NCBI RefSeq assembly: GCF_988242995.1
Contig: NZ_OZ547043.1
Length of the DNA stretch: 64,000 nucleotides
Direction: 5' to 3' (one strand)
The position numbers and the translations under genes were made by a program. This document shows, one piece after another, positions 28,390 to 39,155 of this stretch. The notes beneath the pieces were generated by a model that was given only the letters and a program-made list of their open reading frames with translations, was not told the origin of the DNA and searched no databases. How positions within the stretch are numbered: the first letter of the stretch is position 1; every line of letters starts with the position of its first letter.

Positions 28390-28511
28390 AGATCTCCTGC
28401 AAGGTTTTCCCTGAGCAAATTTGCCAGACAGAGTAATCCAGCAAATCGTTCGGGGAAACCTTACCTGTCGCAAACTGCGACTGATTGGTTAATTGTCGAA
28501 CATTTAATCGA

Positions 28512-28525
28512 CTGAAACGCTTCAG
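28512..28525. promoter_or_regulatory. Cra(FruR)-like operator half-palindrome in the epd / ECF-operon divergent control region
   Basis: CTGAAACGCTTCAG resembles the TGAAACGTTTCA-type Cra consensus, about 125 bp upstream of the epd start. Confidence 0.3.
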
Positions 28526-28760
28526 CTAGGATAAGCGAAACGTGGAATAAAAGGAATGATTGTCCAGTCAAAGAAGACAATTATCTGACTTACGTCACGT
28601 TTTCAGCCCCGCCCCTGTGGAATTTATTCCACTTTGCAGAATCACGAATAAGCGTAGCAAAATCTTTTCGTTGTGCCGTCACAAACCCTGACTTATATCA
28701 GAATATGACTGATGCAGCGTCGATATTATCCGCAATACGTCCGAGTTTCGGAGTACTCCA

Positions 28761-29192
28761 ATGATGACATTGCCCTACCCATATTCTTCCTCCGCACGTT
28801 TTTACGCGCTGCGCCTGCTCCCCGGGCAGGAAGTTCTCTCCCAATTACGCGCCTTCGCGCAGCAACAACAACTTCACGCCGCGTGGATTGCAGGTTGTAC
28901 CGGCAGTCTGACTGACGTCGCCTTACGCTATGCCGGGCAAGAAAACACTGCCCTGCTAAGCGGTAAGTTCGAAGTCATCGCATTGAACGGCACGCTGGAA
29001 CAGAGTGGTGAACATCTTCATCTCTGCGTTTCCGATCCACACGGCACGATGCTTGGCGGTCATATGATGCCCGGCTGTACCGTGCGGACCACGCTTGAAC
29101 TGGTGATCGGCTGCCTTGAGGAACTGGCGTTTAGCCGCCAGCCTTGCGCGCTTTCTGGTTACGACGAGTTGCATATTTCCCCCGTTAACTAA
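28761..29192 (+). CDS. PPC/DUF296 domain protein, 143 aa, first gene of the ECF operon
   Basis: GGAG 8-11 nt upstream of the ATG; ...HLHLCVSDPHGTMLGGHMMPGCTVRTTLELVI resembles the PPC (PF03479-type) fold. Confidence 0.65.
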   Translation: MMTLPYPYSSSARFYALRLLPGQEVLSQLRAFAQQQQLHAAWIAGCTGSLTDVALRYAGQENTALLSGKFEVIALNGTLEQSGEHLHLCVSDPHGTMLGGHMMPGCTVRTTLELVIGCLEELAFSRQPCALSGYDELHISPVN

Positions 29193-29214
29193 CTATTTTC
29201 AGAGAGGTTTTCTT

Positions 29215-29793
29215 ATGGCGCGTCGCCACTTTTCCAGTCAGGCGCTGGTGTTAATCGTTATATCTATCGCCATCAATATGATCGGCGGGCAACTGGCCAG
29301 CATGGTCAAATTACCTATATTTCTCGACTCCGTCGGCACACTTATTAGCGCGGTACTGCTTGGTCCGGTGATCGGGATGCTGACCGGCTTACTGACCAAT
29401 TTACTCTGGGGATTGCTGACCGACCCGATCGCCGCCGCATTTGCGCCCGTCGCGATGGTCATCGGCCTGGTCACCGGTTGGCTGGCGCGAGCGGGTTGGT
29501 TCCGCACCCTGCCAAAAGTCGTTGTTAGCGGCGTGATTATTACGCTTGCGGTAACGGTCGTCGCTGTACCGCTGCGTACTGCGCTGTTCGGCGGCGTGAC
29601 AGGAAGCGGAGCCGATTTGTTCGTTGCCTGGATGCACTCGATGGGGCAAAACCTGGTGGAGTCGGTGGCGATTACGGTGATAGGCGCGAACCTGGTCGAT
29701 AAAATTCTCACAGCGGTGATTGTCTGGCTTTTACTGCGTCAGCTGCCGATTCGCACCACGCGCCATTTCCCGGCAATGGCTGCCGTGCGCTAA
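29215..29793 (+). CDS. ECF transporter substrate-capture (S) component, 192 aa, substrate unknown
   Basis: AGAGAGG Shine-Dalgarno before the ATG; small polytopic protein with LPIFLDSVGTLISAVLLGPVIGMLTGLL, the loop motif typical of S components. Confidence 0.65.
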   Translation: MARRHFSSQALVLIVISIAINMIGGQLASMVKLPIFLDSVGTLISAVLLGPVIGMLTGLLTNLLWGLLTDPIAAAFAPVAMVIGLVTGWLARAGWFRTLPKVVVSGVIITLAVTVVAVPLRTALFGGVTGSGADLFVAWMHSMGQNLVESVAITVIGANLVDKILTAVIVWLLLRQLPIRTTRHFPAMAAVR

Positions 29794-30501
29794 ATGCATC
29801 CGTTTACATCCTTAACGCTGTGGGCGCTGGCGGCCTGCACCACGCTTATCCTGCCCACACAGACAATATTGCCAGTCTATAGCGCGGCGACCTTTTTCTG
29901 CCTTATTGCGCTAAAGGCCACGCGGCGGCGGGCAAAATATGTCGTCTGGCTGATGTTCTCGCTGGGGGCTGGACTGTGGTTGGTACACGGTGGCTGGCTG
30001 ACAGAATGGCTAAGCGGCACGCCACGCTCGCCAGAACGGTGGACGCATGCTATTACGCTCTGGTTGCGGATTCTGGCGATTGTTTCAACCTCGCAGTTGT
30101 GGATGCAGTACGTCCCAGTGCAACGTTTTATCCGCGCTTTGTTTGCTTCTCACCTGCCGCCGGGCGTCGCTTATCTGTTCGCCGGGCCGTTGTTGGTCGT
30201 TGAGCAGTTAAAACGGCAATTAGCGATTATTCATGAAGCGCAGCGCGCCCGCGGCGTGCCGCTGGATGAGGGCTGGTATCAGCGTTTACGTGCTATGCCC
30301 GCGCTAATTATTCCGCTAACACACAATGCGCTAAACGATCTGGCTATCCGTGGTGCGGCGCTGGATATGCGGGCATTTCGAATCAACAATAGGCGCACTA
30401 CGTTATGGGCACCAGCCGATAGCACCCTACAACGCGTAGCACGTTACACCATGATCTTGCTGATGCTGGCAGAATTCGGAGCGTGGATATGGTTACGTTA
30501 G
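29794..30501 (+). CDS. ECF transporter transmembrane (T) component, EcfT/CbiQ family, 235 aa
   Basis: ATG directly abuts the S-component stop (TAAATG); polytopic; ARG and IRG coupling-helix motifs. Confidence 0.65.
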   Translation: MHPFTSLTLWALAACTTLILPTQTILPVYSAATFFCLIALKATRRRAKYVVWLMFSLGAGLWLVHGGWLTEWLSGTPRSPERWTHAITLWLRILAIVSTSQLWMQYVPVQRFIRALFASHLPPGVAYLFAGPLLVVEQLKRQLAIIHEAQRARGVPLDEGWYQRLRAMPALIIPLTHNALNDLAIRGAALDMRAFRINNRRTTLWAPADSTLQRVARYTMILLMLAEFGAWIWLR

Positions 30502-31166
30502 AACAGTTCCGCTATTGCCCGACACACTCAACGCATCCTCCGTTCTGTTATGACTTTCACTATGTCAAACCGGGGATGGTCGCCATCTTTGGTGACAACG
30601 GCAGTGGCAAAAGTACGCTGGCGCAGCTGATGGCGGGCTGGTATCCGGACTTTCTACCAGGAGAGATAACCGGCACGGGGACGCTTCTCGGTACGCCCAT
30701 TGGGCGTCTCCCGCTTAATGAACAATCCGCCACCATCCAGCTCGTCCAGCAATCGCCCTATTTGCAGCTCTCCGGCTGTACCTTTAGCGTGGAAGAAGAA
30801 GTTGCCTTTGGGCCAGAAAATCTGTGTCTTGCTGAAAAAGAGATTATGGCGCGGATTGACGCCGCCCTGGCCCTGACCGAGTGCCAGCCGTTGCGCCATC
30901 GTCACCCGGCAACACTCTCCGGTGGAGAGACACAGCGCGTGGTCATCGCCTGCGCCATCGCGATGCAGCCAAAACTCTTAATTCTTGATGAAGCCTTTAG
31001 CCGCCTGACGCCGCAGGCCAGCGAAATGCTGTTGCAGCGCTTACAACACTGGGCGTCTGAACGTGGTTCGCTGATTATTCTTTTTGAACGTCATCGCACA
31101 CCTTTCCTGAACTACTGCCAGCAAGCGTGGCTATTGCAAAACGGAGCGCTCCAGCCACTATGTTAA
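30489..31166 (+). CDS. ECF transporter ATPase component A, ABC-type, about 225 aa
   Basis: Walker A GDNGSGKST, signature LSGGE, Walker B LLILDEA; start overlaps the T gene (a GTG at 30483 is an alternative start). Confidence 0.75.
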   Translation: MVTLEQFRYCPTHSTHPPFCYDFHYVKPGMVAIFGDNGSGKSTLAQLMAGWYPDFLPGEITGTGTLLGTPIGRLPLNEQSATIQLVQQSPYLQLSGCTFSVEEEVAFGPENLCLAEKEIMARIDAALALTECQPLRHRHPATLSGGETQRVVIACAIAMQPKLLILDEAFSRLTPQASEMLLQRLQHWASERGSLIILFERHRTPFLNYCQQAWLLQNGALQPLC

Positions 31167-31837
31167 CGTTAAATCAGATAACTTATCGCTGGCCTGGCGC
31201 GGCAACGGATTGTCTTTGCGACATTTCTCTGCAACTCAAACAAGGTGAATGGTTGGCGCTGACCGGCGACAATGGCGCGGGAAAATCGACGCTGTTACGA
31301 GTAATGGCAGGTCTTCTTACGCCCACAACCGGTACGGTTATGCTGCAACAACAGGCGATGAAAAACCTGAAAAACCGCCAACGTGCAGCAAAGATTGGCG
31401 TACTGTTTCAGGAAGCGGAAAACCAGCTTTTTCACAGCACCGTCGCCGACGAGATCGCATTTGGTTTGAAACTGCAAAAATGCCCGGCGGATGAAATCAC
31501 TCAACGTACCAATGCTGCCCTGCAATGCTGTCAGTTAGCAGACACTGCCAGCGCGCATCCGCTGGATCTGCATAGTGCGCAGCGACGGATGGTCGCCGTC
31601 GCCTGCCTGGAAGCACTCTCTCCGCCGCTATTGCTGCTGGACGAGCCGAGTCGGGATTTTGACGAAAATTGGTTGAGCGTGTTTGAACGCTGGCTGGAAA
31701 AGTGCCGCCAGCGAGGCACGAGCGTCGTAGCAATCAGTCATGACGCCGCATTTACCCGGCGTCATTTCTCTCGTGTGGTGCGACTGGAAGATGGTGTAAT
31801 CAGGAACGTTAATCCACCAGACGATATTCACCCGTAG
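31160..31837 (+). CDS. ECF transporter ATPase component A', ABC-type, 225 aa
   Basis: Walker A GDNGAGKST, Walker B LLLLDEP, H-loop SHD, signature degenerate (LHSAQ); ATG overlaps the component A stop (ATGTTAA). Confidence 0.75.
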   Translation: MLTLNQITYRWPGAATDCLCDISLQLKQGEWLALTGDNGAGKSTLLRVMAGLLTPTTGTVMLQQQAMKNLKNRQRAAKIGVLFQEAENQLFHSTVADEIAFGLKLQKCPADEITQRTNAALQCCQLADTASAHPLDLHSAQRRMVAVACLEALSPPLLLLDEPSRDFDENWLSVFERWLEKCRQRGTSVVAISHDAAFTRRHFSRVVRLEDGVIRNVNPPDDIHP

Positions 31838-32522
31838 CGGTCATCATTAAGGTCAAATTTGCAGGCAGACTCTCTTCCAGCACCCGGCGAACATTCGGCC
31901 CGTCGGTACGGTCATAAAAGTCTTCTGCGTCTGCCAGCGATAACCCTCCCGCCAGCTTTCGCCCCACCAGTCGTTCCCGCAACGCAGTAGCTGGCGCGTT
32001 GATAAAGATAGAGAAATCACAAAATTGCGCAAGCTGGCACCACTTCTCGTCGTCCAGCAACAACCAGTTTCCTTCGACGATGACGAGTGGTGCGGTAACG
32101 TGCAGCGCATCTTCAACAGGATCATGCTTTTGTCGATCGTACTGCGGCCACGTACAATCCCCTTCCACGACCTGGCGCAGATTTTCCGCCAGTTTCGCAA
32201 CGTCAAATGTCTCTGGTGCGCCTTTGAAGGGGCGCAATTGATGCGCATCCAGCCAGCTATTGTAATGGTGAAAACCATCCATCGGTAGCGTCTGAATAGC
32301 GGGCAGTTCCGGGTCTTGTTGCGCGATATATTCCCAGAAGGTGGTTAGGGTAGATTTACCCGTCCCCGGCGGAGCGCAAAGAAAAACCACCGTACGCCGC
32401 TGCGGATTTACCGTCTGTAAGGCCGCCAACATGTGCAGCAACGGTTTATGTACATTTTCAATCTCTTCGTTCTGGTACTGTGCCTGTATCTTCAGCCCAT
32501 TCACCGTTAATTCAATTTTCAC
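31809..32522 (-). CDS. yggC: P-loop nucleoside/pantothenate-kinase-like protein YggC, 237 aa
   Basis: Walker A APPGTGKST; matches YggC. Confidence 0.85.
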   Translation of the reverse strand: MKIELTVNGLKIQAQYQNEEIENVHKPLLHMLAALQTVNPQRRTVVFLCAPPGTGKSTLTTFWEYIAQQDPELPAIQTLPMDGFHHYNSWLDAHQLRPFKGAPETFDVAKLAENLRQVVEGDCTWPQYDRQKHDPVEDALHVTAPLVIVEGNWLLLDDEKWCQLAQFCDFSIFINAPATALRERLVGRKLAGGLSLADAEDFYDRTDGPNVRRVLEESLPANLTLMMTATGEYRLVD

Positions 32523-35303: not shown

Positions 35304-36692
35304 TCAGTGTTTATGTTCTGCGGTTAATTGATTAAATAAAGTGTCGAGTTTTGGATCGCCAATATAGTTATTAATCAATATCAGTGATTTATCCGTCACA
35401 CGTTTCACGCGCCCTTCCAGACTGGCATGAGTAACAACGATATCCGCATCCGCAGGCACGTTTTCTATCGCGTAATGTTTTACTTCAATTGCCAGCCCCG
35501 CTTTTTCCAGACGTTTACGGAAGGTGGTTGCGCCCATCGCGCTGGAGCCCATCCCCGCATCGCAAACAAAAGCGATACGCTTAACCCGGCTTAACGAGAA
35601 TGCACCCTCTTGTTTCATCGCCTTAACCGCATTGGCTGACTGAGCAAACTCATCTTCGTTCTCCGTTTCCACCGTTTTTTCCATCTTCAGTATCAGCGAA
35701 GTGATAGCAAAGGACACCAGGGTACCTACCGTAACACCAGCAATTGTCGCCAGGAATGAGCCTTTCGGCGTCAGCGCCAGGTAAGCAAAGATAGACCCCG
35801 GACTTGGGCCAGCCACCAGACCACCGTCCAGTAAGTTAAACATCCAGGTGCCAGACATACCGCCCGCAATCATGGCAATAATGGTCAGCGGCTTCATCAG
35901 CACATATGGGAAATACAGTTCGTGGATACCGCCGAGGAAGTGAATAATCATCGCCCCGGGCGCAGAACGTTTACTCATCCCTTTACCAAACAAGGTAAAC
36001 GCCAGCAGCAGCCCTAATCCAGGCCCAGGATTGGACGCCACCATAAAGAAGATAGATTTACCGTTAACCGAAGCCTGTTGCATTCCCAGCGGATAATAGA
36101 CGCCCTGATCGATCGCATTATTGAGGAAAAGCACTTTCGCCGGTTCATTGATGACTGACAGCAGAGGCAGATAACCCGCATGTACCAGCGCCTCGATACA
36201 CTCTTTGACGAAAGTATTGGCAATTAACACCGCCGGGCCGATAACTTCAAAACCCAGCAGACAAAGGAGCATCCCCGCGATACCTAATGAGAAGTTATTG
36301 ATAACCATCTCAAAACCGGCAGGTATGCGTTTTTCCAGCGCCTTGTCGATATATTTAATCACCAGACCACCGAGCGGCCCCATAATCATCGAGCCAAGGA
36401 ACATCGGGATTTCAGCGCCGACGATCACACCAATCGTACCAATTCCGCCCATGACCGCGCCGCGTTTGCCGCCGATCAGATGACCACCAGTAGAACCAAT
36501 CATCACGGGTAATAAATAGGTAATCATCGGACCGACAATTTTGGCGAAATGTTCATTCGGCAGCCAACCGGTGGGAATAAATAACGCAGTTATAAAGCCC
36601 CAGGCAATAAAAGCACCGATATTGGGGATGACCATTGCCGTCAAAAAACCCCCAAAAGCCTGGACCTTTGCACGAGCAGACTTGTTTTCCAT
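35304..36692 (-). CDS. cmtA: PTS mannitol-family EIICB component, 462 aa
   Basis: MENKSARAKVQAFGGFLTAMVIPNIGAFIAWGF... matches CmtA. Confidence 0.9.
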   Translation of the reverse strand: MENKSARAKVQAFGGFLTAMVIPNIGAFIAWGFITALFIPTGWLPNEHFAKIVGPMITYLLPVMIGSTGGHLIGGKRGAVMGGIGTIGVIVGAEIPMFLGSMIMGPLGGLVIKYIDKALEKRIPAGFEMVINNFSLGIAGMLLCLLGFEVIGPAVLIANTFVKECIEALVHAGYLPLLSVINEPAKVLFLNNAIDQGVYYPLGMQQASVNGKSIFFMVASNPGPGLGLLLAFTLFGKGMSKRSAPGAMIIHFLGGIHELYFPYVLMKPLTIIAMIAGGMSGTWMFNLLDGGLVAGPSPGSIFAYLALTPKGSFLATIAGVTVGTLVSFAITSLILKMEKTVETENEDEFAQSANAVKAMKQEGAFSLSRVKRIAFVCDAGMGSSAMGATTFRKRLEKAGLAIEVKHYAIENVPADADIVVTHASLEGRVKRVTDKSLILINNYIGDPKLDTLFNQLTAEHKH

Positions 36693-36719
36693 AATATTAT
36701 CCTGTAGAGGAGAGAGTCA

Positions 36720-37163
36720 TTATCCGCGGCTGATAATGTCCGCTAATTGTTTTTCTGATGATGCTGTTAAGAGTTGTTCGAGTATTTCTTCTTCGCTCAG
36801 TAATTCACTTAACGCCTGAATAGCGCCAATGTGCGAATCGGCATCGGCAGCAGAAAGGCCGATGAGTAATTTTATCGGTTCGTCATTCCCCGGAAAATAA
36901 ACGCCTTGTTTAAGTAACGTTAAAGACATCCCGGTTTTAAGCGCCCCACATTCCGGTCGAGCATGAGGCATTGCCACGCCTGGTGCGAGAATATAGTAAG
37001 GGCCATTACTCATGGTGGAATATTTAATAGCCTGAATGTAATTCTCGCTGATATAGTTTTTATCCAGCAATGATGCCATCGAGAAATCGATAGCTTCCTG
37101 CCAATCTTTTGCTGAATGTATAACTGAGATTGATGATTCTGGAAAATAATCAATAAGCCGCAT
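36720..37163 (-). CDS. cmtB: PTS mannitol-family EIIA component, 147 aa
   Basis: MRLIDYFPESSISVIHSAKDWQEAIDFSMASLL... matches CmtB. Confidence 0.9.
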   Translation of the reverse strand: MRLIDYFPESSISVIHSAKDWQEAIDFSMASLLDKNYISENYIQAIKYSTMSNGPYYILAPGVAMPHARPECGALKTGMSLTLLKQGVYFPGNDEPIKLLIGLSAADADSHIGAIQALSELLSEEEILEQLLTASSEKQLADIISRG

Positions 37164-37540
37164 AAATTATCCTTATTTTATTTTTAGGGTACCGTCCGGC
37201 GGTAAAAATAAAATACTCGTGCGGTTTAATGAAAGCAATTGGGTACGCGAGAAGAAAAACCCCATGAGCCAAAATAATAAAACTTTAAATAACAACAACA
37301 TGAAATCAATAATTACAAAGTCAACTTTGTATTTGTTATGTTTATCACAAAATCAACATTTTGTTTGTTATTGTATTTTTGATGCATATCGCCATTTATT
37401 TATTGAATGTCCGAAAACATACTTTTTTTAATGCAATGTTTTTTCGCTATACCCCTTTATAGATTCTGAATTCTCACCTGTCGGCTATTTTCTCCTCACC
37501 TCATGTGACATATTCCCCACTTTACTCAAGGAAGATTCAT

Positions 37541-38449
37541 ATGAAAGCACCTGTTTCAATAACCTCATTTCGCCCACAAAAATCTATTGCTATCGTCATT
37601 GGCGTGCTTGCCGTGGTTGTGCTGCCATTTCTCTCGTATTACACCGTTAATGAAGGTGAACGCGGCATTTTGCTGCGCTACGGAAAAATCGTAAAAGTTG
37701 CCGAGCCGGGTCTGGGTTTTAAAATCCCTTTTATGGAAAGCGTGGAGAAAATTTCCACGCGTAATCAGGCTGTGGTTTATCAGGGATTACAGGCCTACAG
37801 CCGCGACCAGCAACCGGCACAAATGACAGTATCAGTCAGCTTCCACATTAAACCTTCAGAAGCTGGCGCAGTTTATACAACCTACAACACCATTGAATCT
37901 TTAAAAGAGCGTCTGATCGTCCGCCAGCTGCCAACCCAACTGGAGAACGTTTTCGGGCAATATACAGCCATCAGCGCGGTACAGGATCGTACAAAACTGG
38001 TTCAGGATCTGCAAAATGCAATGCGTAAAGCCGTTGTTGGCCCGGTGGTGATTGATGGTGTTCAGATTGAAAATATTGATTTTTCTGACGCTTATGAAAA
38101 ATCGATTGAAGATCGAATGAAAGCAGAAGTCGCCATTGCCACACGTAAGCAAAATCTGGAAACAGAGAAAATCCAGGCGCAAATAGCGGTAACTCAGGCC
38201 CAGGCAGAAGCAGACAGTAAACTGGCGGCAGCCAAAGCAGAAGCTGAGACTATTCGCGTAAGAGGCGCGGCAGAGGCTGAAACTATTCGTTTAAAAAGTG
38301 CGGCTGAAGCAGAAGCGATCCGCCTGCGCGGTGAAGCTCTGCGGGATAATCCCGGACTTGTTGCCCTCACCACTGCTGAGCGTTGGGACGGTAAGCTACC
38401 CGATACCATGATCCCCGGCAGTACAGTTCCGTTTATCTCTACTAAGTAA
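37541..38449 (+). CDS. SPFH/band-7 (prohibitin/HflC-like) membrane protein with an Ala/Glu-rich repeat tail, 302 aa
   Basis: AAGGAAG Shine-Dalgarno before the ATG; N-terminal TM helix; SPFH core (YTVNEGERGILLRYGK...); C-terminal AEAETIR-type repeats. Confidence 0.7.
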   Translation: MKAPVSITSFRPQKSIAIVIGVLAVVVLPFLSYYTVNEGERGILLRYGKIVKVAEPGLGFKIPFMESVEKISTRNQAVVYQGLQAYSRDQQPAQMTVSVSFHIKPSEAGAVYTTYNTIESLKERLIVRQLPTQLENVFGQYTAISAVQDRTKLVQDLQNAMRKAVVGPVVIDGVQIENIDFSDAYEKSIEDRMKAEVAIATRKQNLETEKIQAQIAVTQAQAEADSKLAAAKAEAETIRVRGAAEAETIRLKSAAEAEAIRLRGEALRDNPGLVALTTAERWDGKLPDTMIPGSTVPFISTK

Positions 38450-39155
38450 TAAATATCCTCCGGCATAGCCGGAGGTTTTTCAAATGCGCCTATAAGGCTC
38501 TCTTACCAGCCGCGCCCTAACAGGCGCACACGATCTGACATTTGCATCCAACTTCGTTACTTACGGCCCGTAAACGGGCTGCCCGGATAGGGAATCGATA
38601 ACTGCTCTCCCATTTTATCCTCTTCAAGCTGGTGCTTTATGTAATCCTGTATCTTCGCCGTGTTCTTACCCACTGTATCGACGTAGTACCCTCTGCACCA
38701 GAACTCCCTGTTCCTGTATTTGAATTTCAAATCACCAAACTGCTCGTAAAGCATCAGACTGCTTTTCCCTTTCAGATATCCCATAAACCCGGATACGCTC
38801 ATTTTGGGCGGGATCTCCACAAGCATATGGATATGATCTGCACAGCATTCAGCTTCCAGAATCCGTACGCTTTTCCACTCACACAGCTTTCTCAAAATAC
38901 TGCCTATTGCTCTACGCTTCTCTCTGTAGAACACCTGTCTTCGGTATTTTGGCGCAAAAACTATGTGATATTTACAGTTCCATCGGGTGTGCGCTAAGCT
39001 CTTTTCGTTCCCCATTGGGACCCCCTTTTGATTTCTTGTTTGACACTTGCAGTTGCCAGACCGCAAGGTGTTTTAACAAATCAAAAGGGGTTTTAATAAC
39101 TGGCTCAAAGCTGAAAGCTTTCCGGAACCCCCAGCCTAGCTGGGGGTTTTCTGTG
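38450..39155 (-). mobile_element. IS200 insertion sequence (IS200/IS605 family), about 0.7 kb, boundaries approximate
   Basis: Complete Y1/HUH transposase gene; GC-rich subterminal hairpins at both ends (cccccagcctagctggggg 39128-39146 and cctccggcatagccggagg 38456-38474). Confidence 0.6.
38557..39015 (-). CDS. tnpA: IS200 transposase TnpA (Y1 HUH transposase), 152 aa
   Basis: MGNEKSLAHTRWNCKYHIVFAPKYRRQVFY...HIHMLVEIPP... matches IS200 TnpA. Confidence 0.9.
   Translation of the reverse strand: MGNEKSLAHTRWNCKYHIVFAPKYRRQVFYREKRRAIGSILRKLCEWKSVRILEAECCADHIHMLVEIPPKMSVSGFMGYLKGKSSLMLYEQFGDLKFKYRNREFWCRGYYVDTVGKNTAKIQDYIKHQLEEDKMGEQLSIPYPGSPFTGRK

What the first reader, a model, noticed from the sequence alone, without database searches (positions are those of the whole stretch)
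30489..31837. The two ECF ATPases predict one canonical and one degenerate nucleotide site
Component A has Walker A GDNGSGKST, an LSGGE signature and Walker B LLILDEA, but an unusual H-loop region (ERH). Component A' has Walker A GDNGAGKST, Walker B LLLLDEP and H-loop SHD, but its signature position reads LHSAQ instead of LSGGQ. In a head-to-tail dimer this gives one consensus site (A' Walker motifs with A signature) and one degenerate site (A Walker motifs with A' LHSAQ). Both proteins are also short (about 225 aa), lacking the C-terminal extension of typical EcfA proteins.
Basis: partly seen in the sequence, partly recalled or inferred. Interest (0 to 1): 0.5.

Follow-up and report, generated by a model that had tools for sequence, protein, structure and literature searches.

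The report
ECF transporter with one crippled ATP site
An accessory E. coli vitamin-type (ECF) importer is powered by two different ATPase subunits that together build one normal ATP-splitting site and one conserved, altered site that probably only holds ATP; this asymmetry is well known in ABC exporters, but I found no description of it for ECF importers.

Summary
Window 30489-31166 (A) and 31160-31837 (A') encode two 225-aa ABC ATPases. They are the last genes of a translationally coupled cassette, PCC(DUF296)-S-T-A-A', which is an accessory island between epd and yggC found in 3319 of 5426 complete E. coli genomes.

A' has LHSAQ exactly where LSGGQ should be, and every other catalytic motif is canonical. 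A has a canonical LSGGE. Family alignments place its "ERH" so that Arg201, not His202, occupies the switch-histidine column. A's D-loop also lacks the conserved Asp (SRLT).

Across 79 related loci from several phyla:
- A' never has LSGG (0/79), while A always does (79/79).
- A' always keeps the H-loop His.
- A has Arg, Lys or Gln at that position in 72/79.

dN/dS is 0.05-0.18, so both genes are under purifying selection. Natural A-A' fusions and a confident AlphaFold model (pTM 0.89) that superposes best on a solved ATP-bound fused two-NBD ATPase (DppD) support one heterodimer. The deviations therefore fall in one composite site (A's P-loop side plus A's partner signature). The other site is close to consensus.

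The short length is real but specific to some lineages. This is a new variant of a known kind. Hydrolysis asymmetry is inferred, not measured. Interest is moderate.

The parts
28761..29192 (+). PCC/DUF296 (PPC) domain protein, first gene of the cassette
   Evidence: Pfam PF03479, 96 bits. It matches the solved Salmonella structures 2HX0/2NMU at E about 1e-70. The gene sits directly upstream of S in 79/80 related genome loci.
29215..29793 (+). ECF S (substrate-capture) component
   Evidence: Pfam ECF_trnsprt scores 33.6 bits, above the 30.7 cut-off. NCBIfam CD3073-family S component scores 136 bits, below the 180 cut-off. Mean column identity is 75% among six distant relatives.
29794..30501 (+). 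ECF T (transmembrane coupling) component. It overlaps the start of A by 13 bases.
   Evidence: Pfam CbiQ scores 23.7 bits, just below the 25 cut-off. RefSeq names it EcfT. Arg-containing motifs QRARG (30241-30255) and AIRGAALD (30343-30366) are read directly from the sequence.
30489..31166 (+). ATPase A (225 aa). It supplies the canonical signature to the consensus site and the P-loop side of the degenerate site.
   Evidence: Pfam ABC_tran 77.8 bits. Best NCBIfam hits are the ECF ATPase models. Motifs located.
30591..30617 (+). A Walker A, GDNGSGKST
   Evidence: The Lys is kept in all aligned loci listed.
30915..30929 (+). A signature LSGGE (canonical)
   Evidence: LSGGE or LSGGQ in 79/79 loci.
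30975..30992 (+). A Walker B, LLILDE (Asp-Glu retained)
   Evidence: Glu in 77/79 loci and Gln in 2 Aeromonas loci.
30999..31010 (+). A D-loop SRLT, lacking the conserved Asp
   Evidence: Thr174 falls in a column that is Asp in 121/121 fused ECF-type representatives. SRLT occurs in 59/79 family loci.
31086..31094 (+). A H-loop region Glu200-Arg201-His202. Arg201 (31089-31091) occupies the switch-His column.
   Evidence: hmmalign and MAFFT put Arg201 on the His of ATH/AEH/EH relatives, which is His in 89/121 representatives. The family has R 63, K 4, Q 5, H 6, M 1 at this column. The residue after it varies (H/N/A/T/S).
31160..31837 (+). ATPase A' (225 aa), the catalytically complete subunit with a degenerate signature. 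It overlaps the end of A by 7 bases and the 3' end of convergent yggC by 29 bases.
   Evidence: Pfam ABC_tran 95.7 bits. ECF ATPase models are the best NCBIfam hits. Motifs located.
31265..31291 (+). A' Walker A, GDNGAGKST
31568..31582 (+). A' degenerate signature LHSAQ
   Evidence: It aligns to LSGGQ of ABCB1/ABCB4 and to the signature columns of 121 representatives. 0/79 family loci have LSGG here. Among the 120 closest homologues it reads LHTAQ (89), LHSAQ (18) or LHAAQ (10); the other 3 are truncated or gapped at this motif.
31628..31645 (+). A' Walker B, LLLLDE
   Evidence: Glu in 79/79 loci.
31649..31663 (+). A' D-loop SRDFD (Asp retained)
31736..31744 (+). A' H-loop SHD (canonical His194)
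   Evidence: His in 79/79 loci and in all 132 rows of the A2 alignment (invariant column H449).

Best explanation
A and A' are the two nucleotide-binding subunits of a dedicated (group-I-like) ECF importer, PCC-S-T-A-A', whose substrate is unknown.

They form one A/A' heterodimer with two unequal ATP sites. The site built from A' (Walker A/B, Q-loop, His194) and A's LSGGE is the catalytic one. The site built from A's Walker A/B and Q-loop, Arg201 in place of the switch histidine, and A' LHSAQ still has the residues needed to bind Mg-ATP. It probably hydrolyses ATP very slowly or not at all.

ATP held there would act as a hinge or glue that keeps the two subunits engaged, while single-site hydrolysis drives the T-component coupling helices and resets the S component.

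Shown here: the motif pattern, its placement in one composite site, its conservation under purifying selection, and the A-A' partnership. Inferred: ATP binding without hydrolysis, and the hinge role.
For: - Motif positions.
- Family-wide pattern in 79 loci from Enterobacterales, Aeromonas, Wohlfahrtiimonas, Synergistaceae, Chloroflexota, Desulfobacterales and Spirochaetaceae. A' signature is never LSGG, A signature always is, A' His and Glu are always present, and A's H-loop column is R/K/Q in 72/79.
- The Arg201 assignment comes from two independent alignments.
- Purifying selection: dN/dS 0.05-0.18 for both genes.
- Partnership and geometry: natural A-A' and T-A-A' fusions. The AF2 fused model has pLDDT 93 and pTM 0.89. 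Its best PDB match is ATP-bound DppD 8WDB_D, TM 0.76 over both NBDs. It is closer to ATP-bound ABCB1 (0.71) than to inward-facing ABCB1 (0.47-0.52).
- His-to-Arg at this position leaves less than 2% ATPase activity in MalK (H192R) and HisP (H211R), as reviewed in PMC6222333.
- In known degenerate sites the NBD2 signature always deviates, often together with the NBD1 H-loop or Walker B. ATP stays bound there as a hinge (PMC7756269).
- A keeps the Walker A Lys, Walker B Asp-Glu and Q-loop Gln.
Against: - No biochemical data exist for this system, and hydrolysis at either site is untested.
- A retains the catalytic Glu168, so slow turnover is possible.
- The 'consensus' site receives A's D-loop, which lacks the otherwise invariant Asp. 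That site may therefore also be atypical.
- Substitution of the first signature Gly is tolerated in CbiO1 (3GFO reads LSFGQ), so not every signature deviation inactivates a site.
- The AF2 model has no ligand, and its coordinates could not be inspected residue by residue. By DSSP strand ends alone, Arg201 versus His202 is ambiguous.
Confidence: 0.7

Rival explanations
1. Both sites are catalytically active. Arg201 of A, possibly together with His138 of the A' signature (the His in LHSAQ), provides an alternative way to stabilise the gamma-phosphate, so the site is re-wired rather than disabled.
For: A keeps Walker A Lys, Walker B Asp-Glu and Q-loop Gln. The replacements are themselves conserved (Glu-Arg in A; His, Asn or Asp at signature position 2 in A'), not random. 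Some ABC proteins tolerate H-loop changes, for example Pdr5, mentioned in PMC6222333.
Against: His-to-Arg at this position leaves under 2% activity in MalK and HisP. Signature position 2 varies (H/N/D/Y) within the Arg clade, and Arg is replaced by Lys or Gln in some lineages. Two Aeromonas species additionally lose the catalytic Glu, reading LDQ. That pattern fits relaxed catalytic demands better than a precise new catalytic dyad.
Confidence: 0.15
2. The A-side site no longer binds nucleotide at all. A is mainly a structural partner that docks A' onto the T component.
For: Three motifs deviate around A (H-loop, D-loop, and the partner's signature). A scores lower than A' against every ABC model, for example 77.8 versus 95.7 bits on Pfam ABC_tran.
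Against: Walker A GxxGxGK(S/T), the Walker B Asp and the Q-loop Gln of A are conserved in all aligned loci listed. That would be unnecessary for a protein that does not bind nucleotide. dN/dS of A is as low as that of A'.
Confidence: 0.1
3. The deviations reflect decay. The island is a degenerating remnant, and A and/or A' are on the way to becoming pseudogenes in E. coli.
For: The island is absent from about 39% of complete E. coli genomes. Occasional relatives carry damaged copies: A truncated in the E. albertii type strain, A' disrupted in Trabulsiella. No sigma-70 consensus promoter or riboswitch was found upstream.
Against: dN/dS is 0.05-0.18. Full-length 225-aa A' clusters have hundreds to more than a thousand members each. 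The same motif pattern is conserved across phyla. The genes are translationally coupled.
Confidence: 0.03

Closest known systems
Group II ECF modules EcfA/EcfA'/EcfT (solved, for example L. brevis 4HUQ/4RFS, L. delbrueckii 5D3M/5JSZ, T. maritima EcfA-A' 4HLU)
   Same: Two different ABC ATPases sit with a T and an S component. The best sequence-family hits of A and A' are the ECF ATPase models. Single-NBD structural matches have rmsd about 2 Å (6ZG3_F, 4HLU_A).
   Different: Scores lie far below the equivalog cut-offs: 124-150 bits against 315-330. The E. coli proteins lack the roughly 50-residue C-terminal helical extension. The S component is operon-encoded (dedicated). The A' signature and the A H-loop and D-loop deviate, whereas L. 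delbrueckii EcfA2 shows LSGGQ and THN. From memory, both subunits of the solved pairs carry consensus motifs.
Group I ECF transporter CbiMNQO / CbiO (5X3X, 5X40, 3GFO)
   Same: A dedicated, operon-encoded ECF module. CbiO is the closest single-NBD structure: 5X40_A, rmsd 1.6 Å, 30% identity.
   Different: CbiO is one protein used twice (a dimer structure, 5X40), so both sites should be equivalent. It carries a C-terminal domain (280 aa). Here two diverged genes give two unequal sites.
Heterodimeric or full-length ABC exporters with a consensus and a degenerate site (TAP1/2, CFTR, MRP1, TM287/288, Pdr5)
   Same: The logic and the polarity are the same. The first NBD carries deviating catalytic residues (H-loop and/or Walker B). 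The second NBD carries the deviating signature. The other site is consensus, and the degenerate motifs are themselves conserved (PMC7756269; PMC3971661).
   Different: The transporter class is different: a type III/ECF importer with an unrelated membrane architecture. The H-loop substitute here is Arg, and the catalytic Glu is retained. NBD1's D-loop Asp is lost.
Fused two-NBD ATPases of importers with one degenerate site (RbsA, NupO) and fused ECF ATPases such as YkoD
   Same: These are importer ATPases with unequal halves (PMC11466899). Among the 121 fused ECF-type representatives in the A2 alignment, the N-domain always keeps the signature Ser and the C-domain always keeps the H-loop His, while the C-domain lacks the signature Ser in 38 and the N-domain lacks the H-loop His in 32. 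The polarity is the same as here.
   Different: In RbsA and NupO the second Walker A Lys is lost, so ATP binding is lost. Here both Walker A motifs are intact. In E. coli the two halves are separate genes. The YkoEDC paper does not discuss motif degeneracy.

Membership tests
ECF (type III ABC) transporter | S component of the ECF_trnsprt family | tested here: met
   PF12822 scores 33.6 bits against a cut-off of 30.7. RefSeq names it 'ECF transporter S component'.
ECF (type III ABC) transporter | T component (EcfT/CbiQ) with two Arg-containing coupling-helix motifs | tested here: inconclusive
   PF02361 scores 23.7 bits, just under the cut-off of 25. There is no NCBIfam hit. RefSeq names it EcfT. 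QRARG and AIRGAALD motifs are read in the sequence.
ECF (type III ABC) transporter | Two ABC ATPase domains of the ECF/CbiO clade | tested here: met
   The best NCBIfam hits of both proteins are TIGR04520/TIGR04521/cbiO. The closest single-NBD structure is CbiO 5X40.
NCBIfam equivalogs ECF_ATPase_1 / ECF_ATPase_2 (EcfA1/EcfA2 of group II modules) | Score above the curated cut-off (315 / 330 bits) | tested here: not met
   A scores 124 and 111.5 bits. A' scores 145 and 150 bits.
NCBIfam CD3073-family ECF S component (NF045596) | Score above the curated cut-off (180 bits) | tested here: not met
   136.1 bits. It is related to the family but is not a member of the equivalog.
Typical EcfA/EcfA' architecture | C-terminal helical extension of about 50 aa after the RecA-like core | tested here: not met
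   A and A' end 1 and 7 residues after the family-HMM envelope. Proteus, Providencia and Budvicia relatives have tails of 43-60 aa. Alignments end near position 212-223 of 269-279-position models.
ABC NBD dimer with one consensus and one degenerate nucleotide site | Two non-identical NBDs that pair with each other as one dimer | tested here: met
   The genes are adjacent and overlapping. Natural A-A' and T-A-A' fusions exist. The AF2 fused model has pTM 0.89 and superposes on ATP-bound DppD 8WDB_D, TM 0.76. This is a prediction, not an experiment, and the head-to-tail interface was inferred from that match rather than measured.
ABC NBD dimer with one consensus and one degenerate nucleotide site | Non-consensus signature in one NBD only | tested here: met
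   A' reads LHSAQ and A reads LSGGE. The split is 0/79 against 79/79 across the family.
ABC NBD dimer with one consensus and one degenerate nucleotide site | Deviating catalytic residue (Walker B Glu or H-loop His) in the partner NBD, so that the deviations share one composite site | tested here: met
   Arg201 of A sits in the H-loop His column. The family has R/K/Q at this column in 72/79 loci.
ABC NBD dimer with one consensus and one degenerate nucleotide site | The other site is fully consensus | tested here: inconclusive
   A' Walker A/B, Q-loop and His194 plus A's LSGGE are all consensus. A's D-loop, which by the usual geometry reaches toward the A' site, lacks the Asp that is found in 121/121 relatives.
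ABC NBD dimer with one consensus and one degenerate nucleotide site | Strongly reduced ATP hydrolysis, with retained ATP binding, at the degenerate site | not testable with these tools
   This needs ATPase assays of site-specific mutants or nucleotide-occlusion experiments.

The most novel reading that the evidence does not exclude
A whole ancient ECF subfamily, always linked to a PCC/DUF296 protein, runs on a single catalytic site. The permanently ATP-occupied A-side site has taken over the job of holding the two ATPases together. That is what allowed Enterobacteriaceae and a few other lineages to discard the C-terminal dimerisation extensions that other ECF ATPases carry. In the sampled loci, separately encoded A/A' pairs in which both subunits have lost their tails occur only in the clade with Arg or Lys at the H-loop. 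If true, this would be the first ECF motor with a division of labour between a hinge site and a power site, and it sits in ordinary E. coli isolates.
Probability: 0.2. Interest if true: 0.65.

Novelty: new variant of a known kind. Interest (0 to 1): 0.5.

Why it matters
Consensus/degenerate site asymmetry is a central and still debated theme for ABC exporters such as CFTR, TAP and MRP1. ECF importers are usually discussed as having two equivalent, competent sites. Full-text searches of the held library found no paper describing a degenerate site in an ECF transporter.

This family offers a natural, conserved example:
- It occurs as split, A-A' fused and T-A-A' fused versions.
- It occurs with and without C-terminal extensions.
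- It is present in most E. coli isolates and absent from others, so isogenic comparison and genetics are easy.

It could show how many ATP molecules an ECF cycle really needs, and what the second site is for. It also flags an uncharacterised five-gene transporter, including a PCC-domain protein of unknown role whose close Salmonella homologue already has a solved structure (2HX0).

Tried and rejected
- Pairwise HMMER alignments to ABCB1 opened a gap so that E. coli His202 met the H-loop His. I rejected this. His202 is not conserved (ERH/ERN/ERA/ERT), and two family-level alignments put Arg201 in the His column.
- DSSP strand ends of the AF2 model could not settle Arg201 versus His202 on their own.
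- An Rfam scan of the upstream region found nothing. The sigma-70 promoter and terminator scan also found nothing. Regulation remains unknown.
- Literature searches for CD3073, DUF296/PPC/2HX0, 'lacks ECF' and YkoD gave nothing on this system or on degenerate ECF sites.
- I first counted every non-xSGG signature in fused ECF ATPases as degenerate (106/142). I softened this after seeing LSFGQ in CbiO1 3GFO. The stricter count is loss of the Ser in 38/121 or of the second Gly in 21/121.
- The pseudogene and decay explanation is rejected by dN/dS and by conservation.
- The substrate could not be inferred. The only recurrent neighbour apart from PCC was a TAXI-TRAP transporter, in two lineages.
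Full report
**What the window is**

The window is E. coli chromosome, 100% identical to strain H1827/12. The finding covers the last two genes of a five-gene, same-strand cassette between epd and the yggC kinase gene:
- PCC/DUF296 protein, 28761-29192
- ECF S component, 29215-29793
- ECF T component, 29794-30501
- ATPase A, 30489-31166
- ATPase A', 31160-31837

The reading frames abut or overlap: S/T are adjacent, T/A overlap by 13 bases and A/A' by 7 bases. This indicates translational coupling. RefSeq calls the same ORFs and names the two ATPases only 'ABC transporter ATP-binding protein'.

The cassette is an accessory island. At least 80% of the 3.4-kb query is present in 3319 of 5426 complete E. 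coli genomes. The other genomes have epd directly next to yggC.

**Checking the observation**

- A: Walker A GDNGSGKST (aa 35-43), signature LSGGE (143-147), Walker B LLILDE (163-168), D-loop SRLT (171-174), and ERH (200-202).
- A': Walker A GDNGAGKST (36-44), LHSAQ (137-141), Walker B LLLLDE (157-162), D-loop SRDFD (164-168), and H-loop SHD (193-195).

A' contains no LSGG anywhere. HMMER alignments to ABCB4 and ABCB1 place LHSAQ on LSGGQ. A 132-sequence MAFFT alignment does the same: His138 falls in the Ser column, Ser139 in the first-Gly column and Ala140 in the second-Gly column.

Both proteins are 225 aa. They end where the RecA-like core ends in EcfA models and structures, about 45-55 residues short.

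**The H-loop of A**

Pairwise alignment to ABCB1 opened a gap to bring His202 onto the H-loop histidine. That is an artefact of the E. coli sequence. In relatives the region reads FERN, FERA, FERH, LERN, LERT, LEKR and LEQR. Only Glu-Arg is conserved.

In the family HMM alignment the Arg column is the one that holds His in distant relatives (ATH, AEH). In the MAFFT alignment Arg201 falls in a column that is His in 89 of 121 fused ECF-type ATPases. Glu200 falls in the E/T column and His202 in the variable position after the His.

A has therefore replaced the switch histidine with arginine. In addition, Thr174 of A's D-loop sits in a column that is Asp in 121/121 of those representatives.

**Is it conserved?**

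The relatives found were:
- Close family members and natural fusions, from a search of 1.84 billion representative proteins.
- Five metagenomic contexts with the same cassette. These include an A-A' fusion (503 aa) and T-A-A' fusions (652-683 aa).
- Eighty further loci, from a genome scan with the well conserved S component. They come from Escherichia, Citrobacter, Klebsiella, Salmonella, Kluyvera, Atlantibacter, Buttiauxella, Proteus, Providencia, Budvicia, Aeromonas, Wohlfahrtiimonas, Synergistaceae, Chloroflexota, Desulfobacterales, Spirochaetaceae and Paracoccus.

In 79 usable loci:
- The A signature is LSGGE or LSGGQ in 79/79.
- The A' signature is LSGG in 0/79. It reads LHTAQ (20), LHAGQ (18), LHSAQ (7), LHVAQ (5), LNSAE (4) and others.
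- A' has the H-loop His and the Walker B Glu in 79/79.
- A's H-loop column is Arg 63, Lys 4, Gln 5, His 6 and Met 1.
- Two Aeromonas species also changed A's catalytic Glu to Gln.

The degenerate A' signature is older than the His-to-Arg change. Distant relatives that keep His or Gln in A already have signatures such as LSLAW, LGYSE and LNLTE.

Both genes are under purifying selection, with dN/dS 0.05-0.18 against other Enterobacteriaceae. Among the 120 closest A' homologues the motif reads LHTAQ, LHSAQ or LHAAQ in 117, and the other three are truncated or gapped there.

**Do A and A' form one dimer?**

Gene order A then A' is constant, and the two are naturally fused in several lineages.

I modelled E. 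coli A, a 30-residue Gly-Ser linker, and A' with AlphaFold2, using the 132-sequence paired alignment. The result was mean pLDDT 93.2 and pTM 0.89, with only the linker disordered.

The best PDB match covers both NBDs: the fused two-NBD ATPase DppD in the ATP-bound DppABCD complex (8WDB_D, TM 0.76, rmsd 4.3 Å). ATP-bound, outward-facing ABCB1 also matches (6C0V, TM 0.71), better than inward-facing forms (0.47-0.52). The best single-NBD match is CbiO (5X40, rmsd 1.6 Å).

The model therefore resembles solved, closed two-NBD ATPases, which implies the standard head-to-tail arrangement. I could not read the coordinates, so residue-level contacts and the interface itself are inferred from the general ABC architecture.

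**Mechanism**

In a head-to-tail dimer each site consists of Walker A/B, Q-loop and H-loop from one subunit and the signature from the other.
- The A' site (A' catalytic motifs plus A's LSGGE) is essentially consensus.
- The A site combines Arg201 with LHSAQ.

His-to-Arg at this position leaves under 2% ATPase activity in MalK (H192R) and HisP (H211R), as reviewed in PMC6222333. In all human degenerate sites the NBD2 signature deviates, often together with the NBD1 H-loop or Walker B. ATP stays bound there as a hinge, and the degenerate motifs remain conserved (PMC7756269).

A keeps the Walker A Lys, Walker B Asp-Glu and Q-loop Gln in all aligned loci. The likeliest reading is therefore ATP binding with little or no hydrolysis at the A site, and single-site hydrolysis at A' driving the T coupling helices. 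This step is inference.

Caveats:
- A retains the catalytic Glu.
- A's Asp-less D-loop probably faces the A' site.
- CbiO1 (3GFO) has LSFGQ, so a first-Gly change alone is not disabling. Here the Ser is also lost, and in Enterobacteriaceae the second Gly as well.

**Wider pattern**

Eight sampled fused two-NBD representatives score best against the ECF ATPase models. Across the 121 such representatives in the alignment:
- The N-domain keeps the signature Ser in 121/121. The C-domain keeps it in only 83/121.
- The second Gly is kept in 121/121 N-domains and 100/121 C-domains.
- The C-domain keeps the H-loop His in 121/121. The N-domain keeps it in only 89/121.

The same polarity of asymmetry is therefore widespread among duplicated ECF ATPases. 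The set was chosen by similarity to A', so it is biased.

**The short length**

Enterobacteriaceae, one metagenomic relative (L010) and Wohlfahrtiimonas have 0-11 residues after the core in both subunits. Proteus, Providencia, Budvicia, Limnobaculum, L003 and the distant Chloroflexota/Desulfobacterales relatives carry tails of about 43-63 aa.

The truncation is real but lineage-specific. Among separately encoded pairs, loss of both tails is seen only in the clade with Arg or Lys at the H-loop. This fits, weakly and with few independent events, the idea that a stable ATP hinge made the dimerising tails dispensable.

**Comparison with what is known**

The system works like a consensus/degenerate ABC heterodimer and belongs to the ECF class. 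It is not a member of the curated EcfA1/EcfA2 or CD3073 equivalogs, because its scores are well below their cut-offs.

Full-text searches found discussion of degenerate sites for exporters and for fused importer ATPases (RbsA, NupO), but none for ECF transporters. The library excludes much subscription literature, so earlier mention cannot be ruled out.

**Verdict**

This is a new variant of a known kind, of moderate interest, and directly testable in E. coli.

Noticed in passing
window 28761-29192; loci L002-L090: A PCC/DUF296 ('PPC domain-containing DNA-binding protein') gene sits directly upstream of the S component, on the same strand, in 79 of 80 related genome loci across several phyla. 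It therefore appears to be an obligate fifth component of this ECF system. A close Salmonella homologue has solved structural-genomics structures (2HX0, 2NMU; E about 1e-70). Its role is unknown. Residues such as GEHLH, GGH and PGC are conserved.
   Followed up: partly
window 28474-31900; L091: The cassette is a presence/absence polymorphism: 3319 of 5426 complete E. coli genomes carry it. The A' gene overlaps the 3' end of convergent yggC by 29 bases. The last 35 or so residues of YggC differ between island-positive and island-negative strains, so the right junction lies inside yggC.
   Followed up: partly
L002:2681-4192; L004:5001-7052; L007:5001-6959; L074, L083, L084, L086, L090: Natural gene fusions of the same system exist: A-A' (503 aa) and T-A-A' (652-683 aa). 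They keep the LSGGE / Glu-Arg / degenerate-signature pattern.
   Followed up: yes
L070, L071 (Aeromonas finlandensis, A. sobria): In these two species subunit A has also changed the catalytic Walker B Glu to Gln (LLILDQ) and has Gln at the H-loop position. This is a further step of degeneration of the same site.
   Followed up: no
L048 (Buttiauxella sp. B2); L012 (E. albertii NBRC 107761); L019 (Trabulsiella odontotermitis); L014 (E. coli E69): There are exceptions and damaged copies. One Buttiauxella A reads FAH, with His at the H-loop column. A is truncated before Walker B in the E. albertii type strain. A' is disrupted in Trabulsiella. A' was not recovered in the held DNA of E. coli E69.
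   Followed up: no
L003:6782-9796; L007:889-3735: In two unrelated metagenomic lineages the cassette lies next to a TAXI-TRAP transporter (NMT1_3 binding protein plus a DctM-fused permease). This is a possible hint to the substrate or pathway.
   Followed up: no
PDB 3GFO (C. perfringens CbiO1): The solved CbiO1 ATPase of a cobalt ECF transporter has LSFGQ instead of LSGGQ. Substitution of the first signature Gly therefore occurs even in a cobalt ECF ATPase that, from memory, works as a homodimer.
   Followed up: no
window about 36000-39015: G+C drops to 0.44 in 36-38 kb (cmtB and a prohibitin-family gene). An IS200C-family transposase gene follows at about 38557-39015, just before tkt, according to the annotation of the identical strain.
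   Followed up: no
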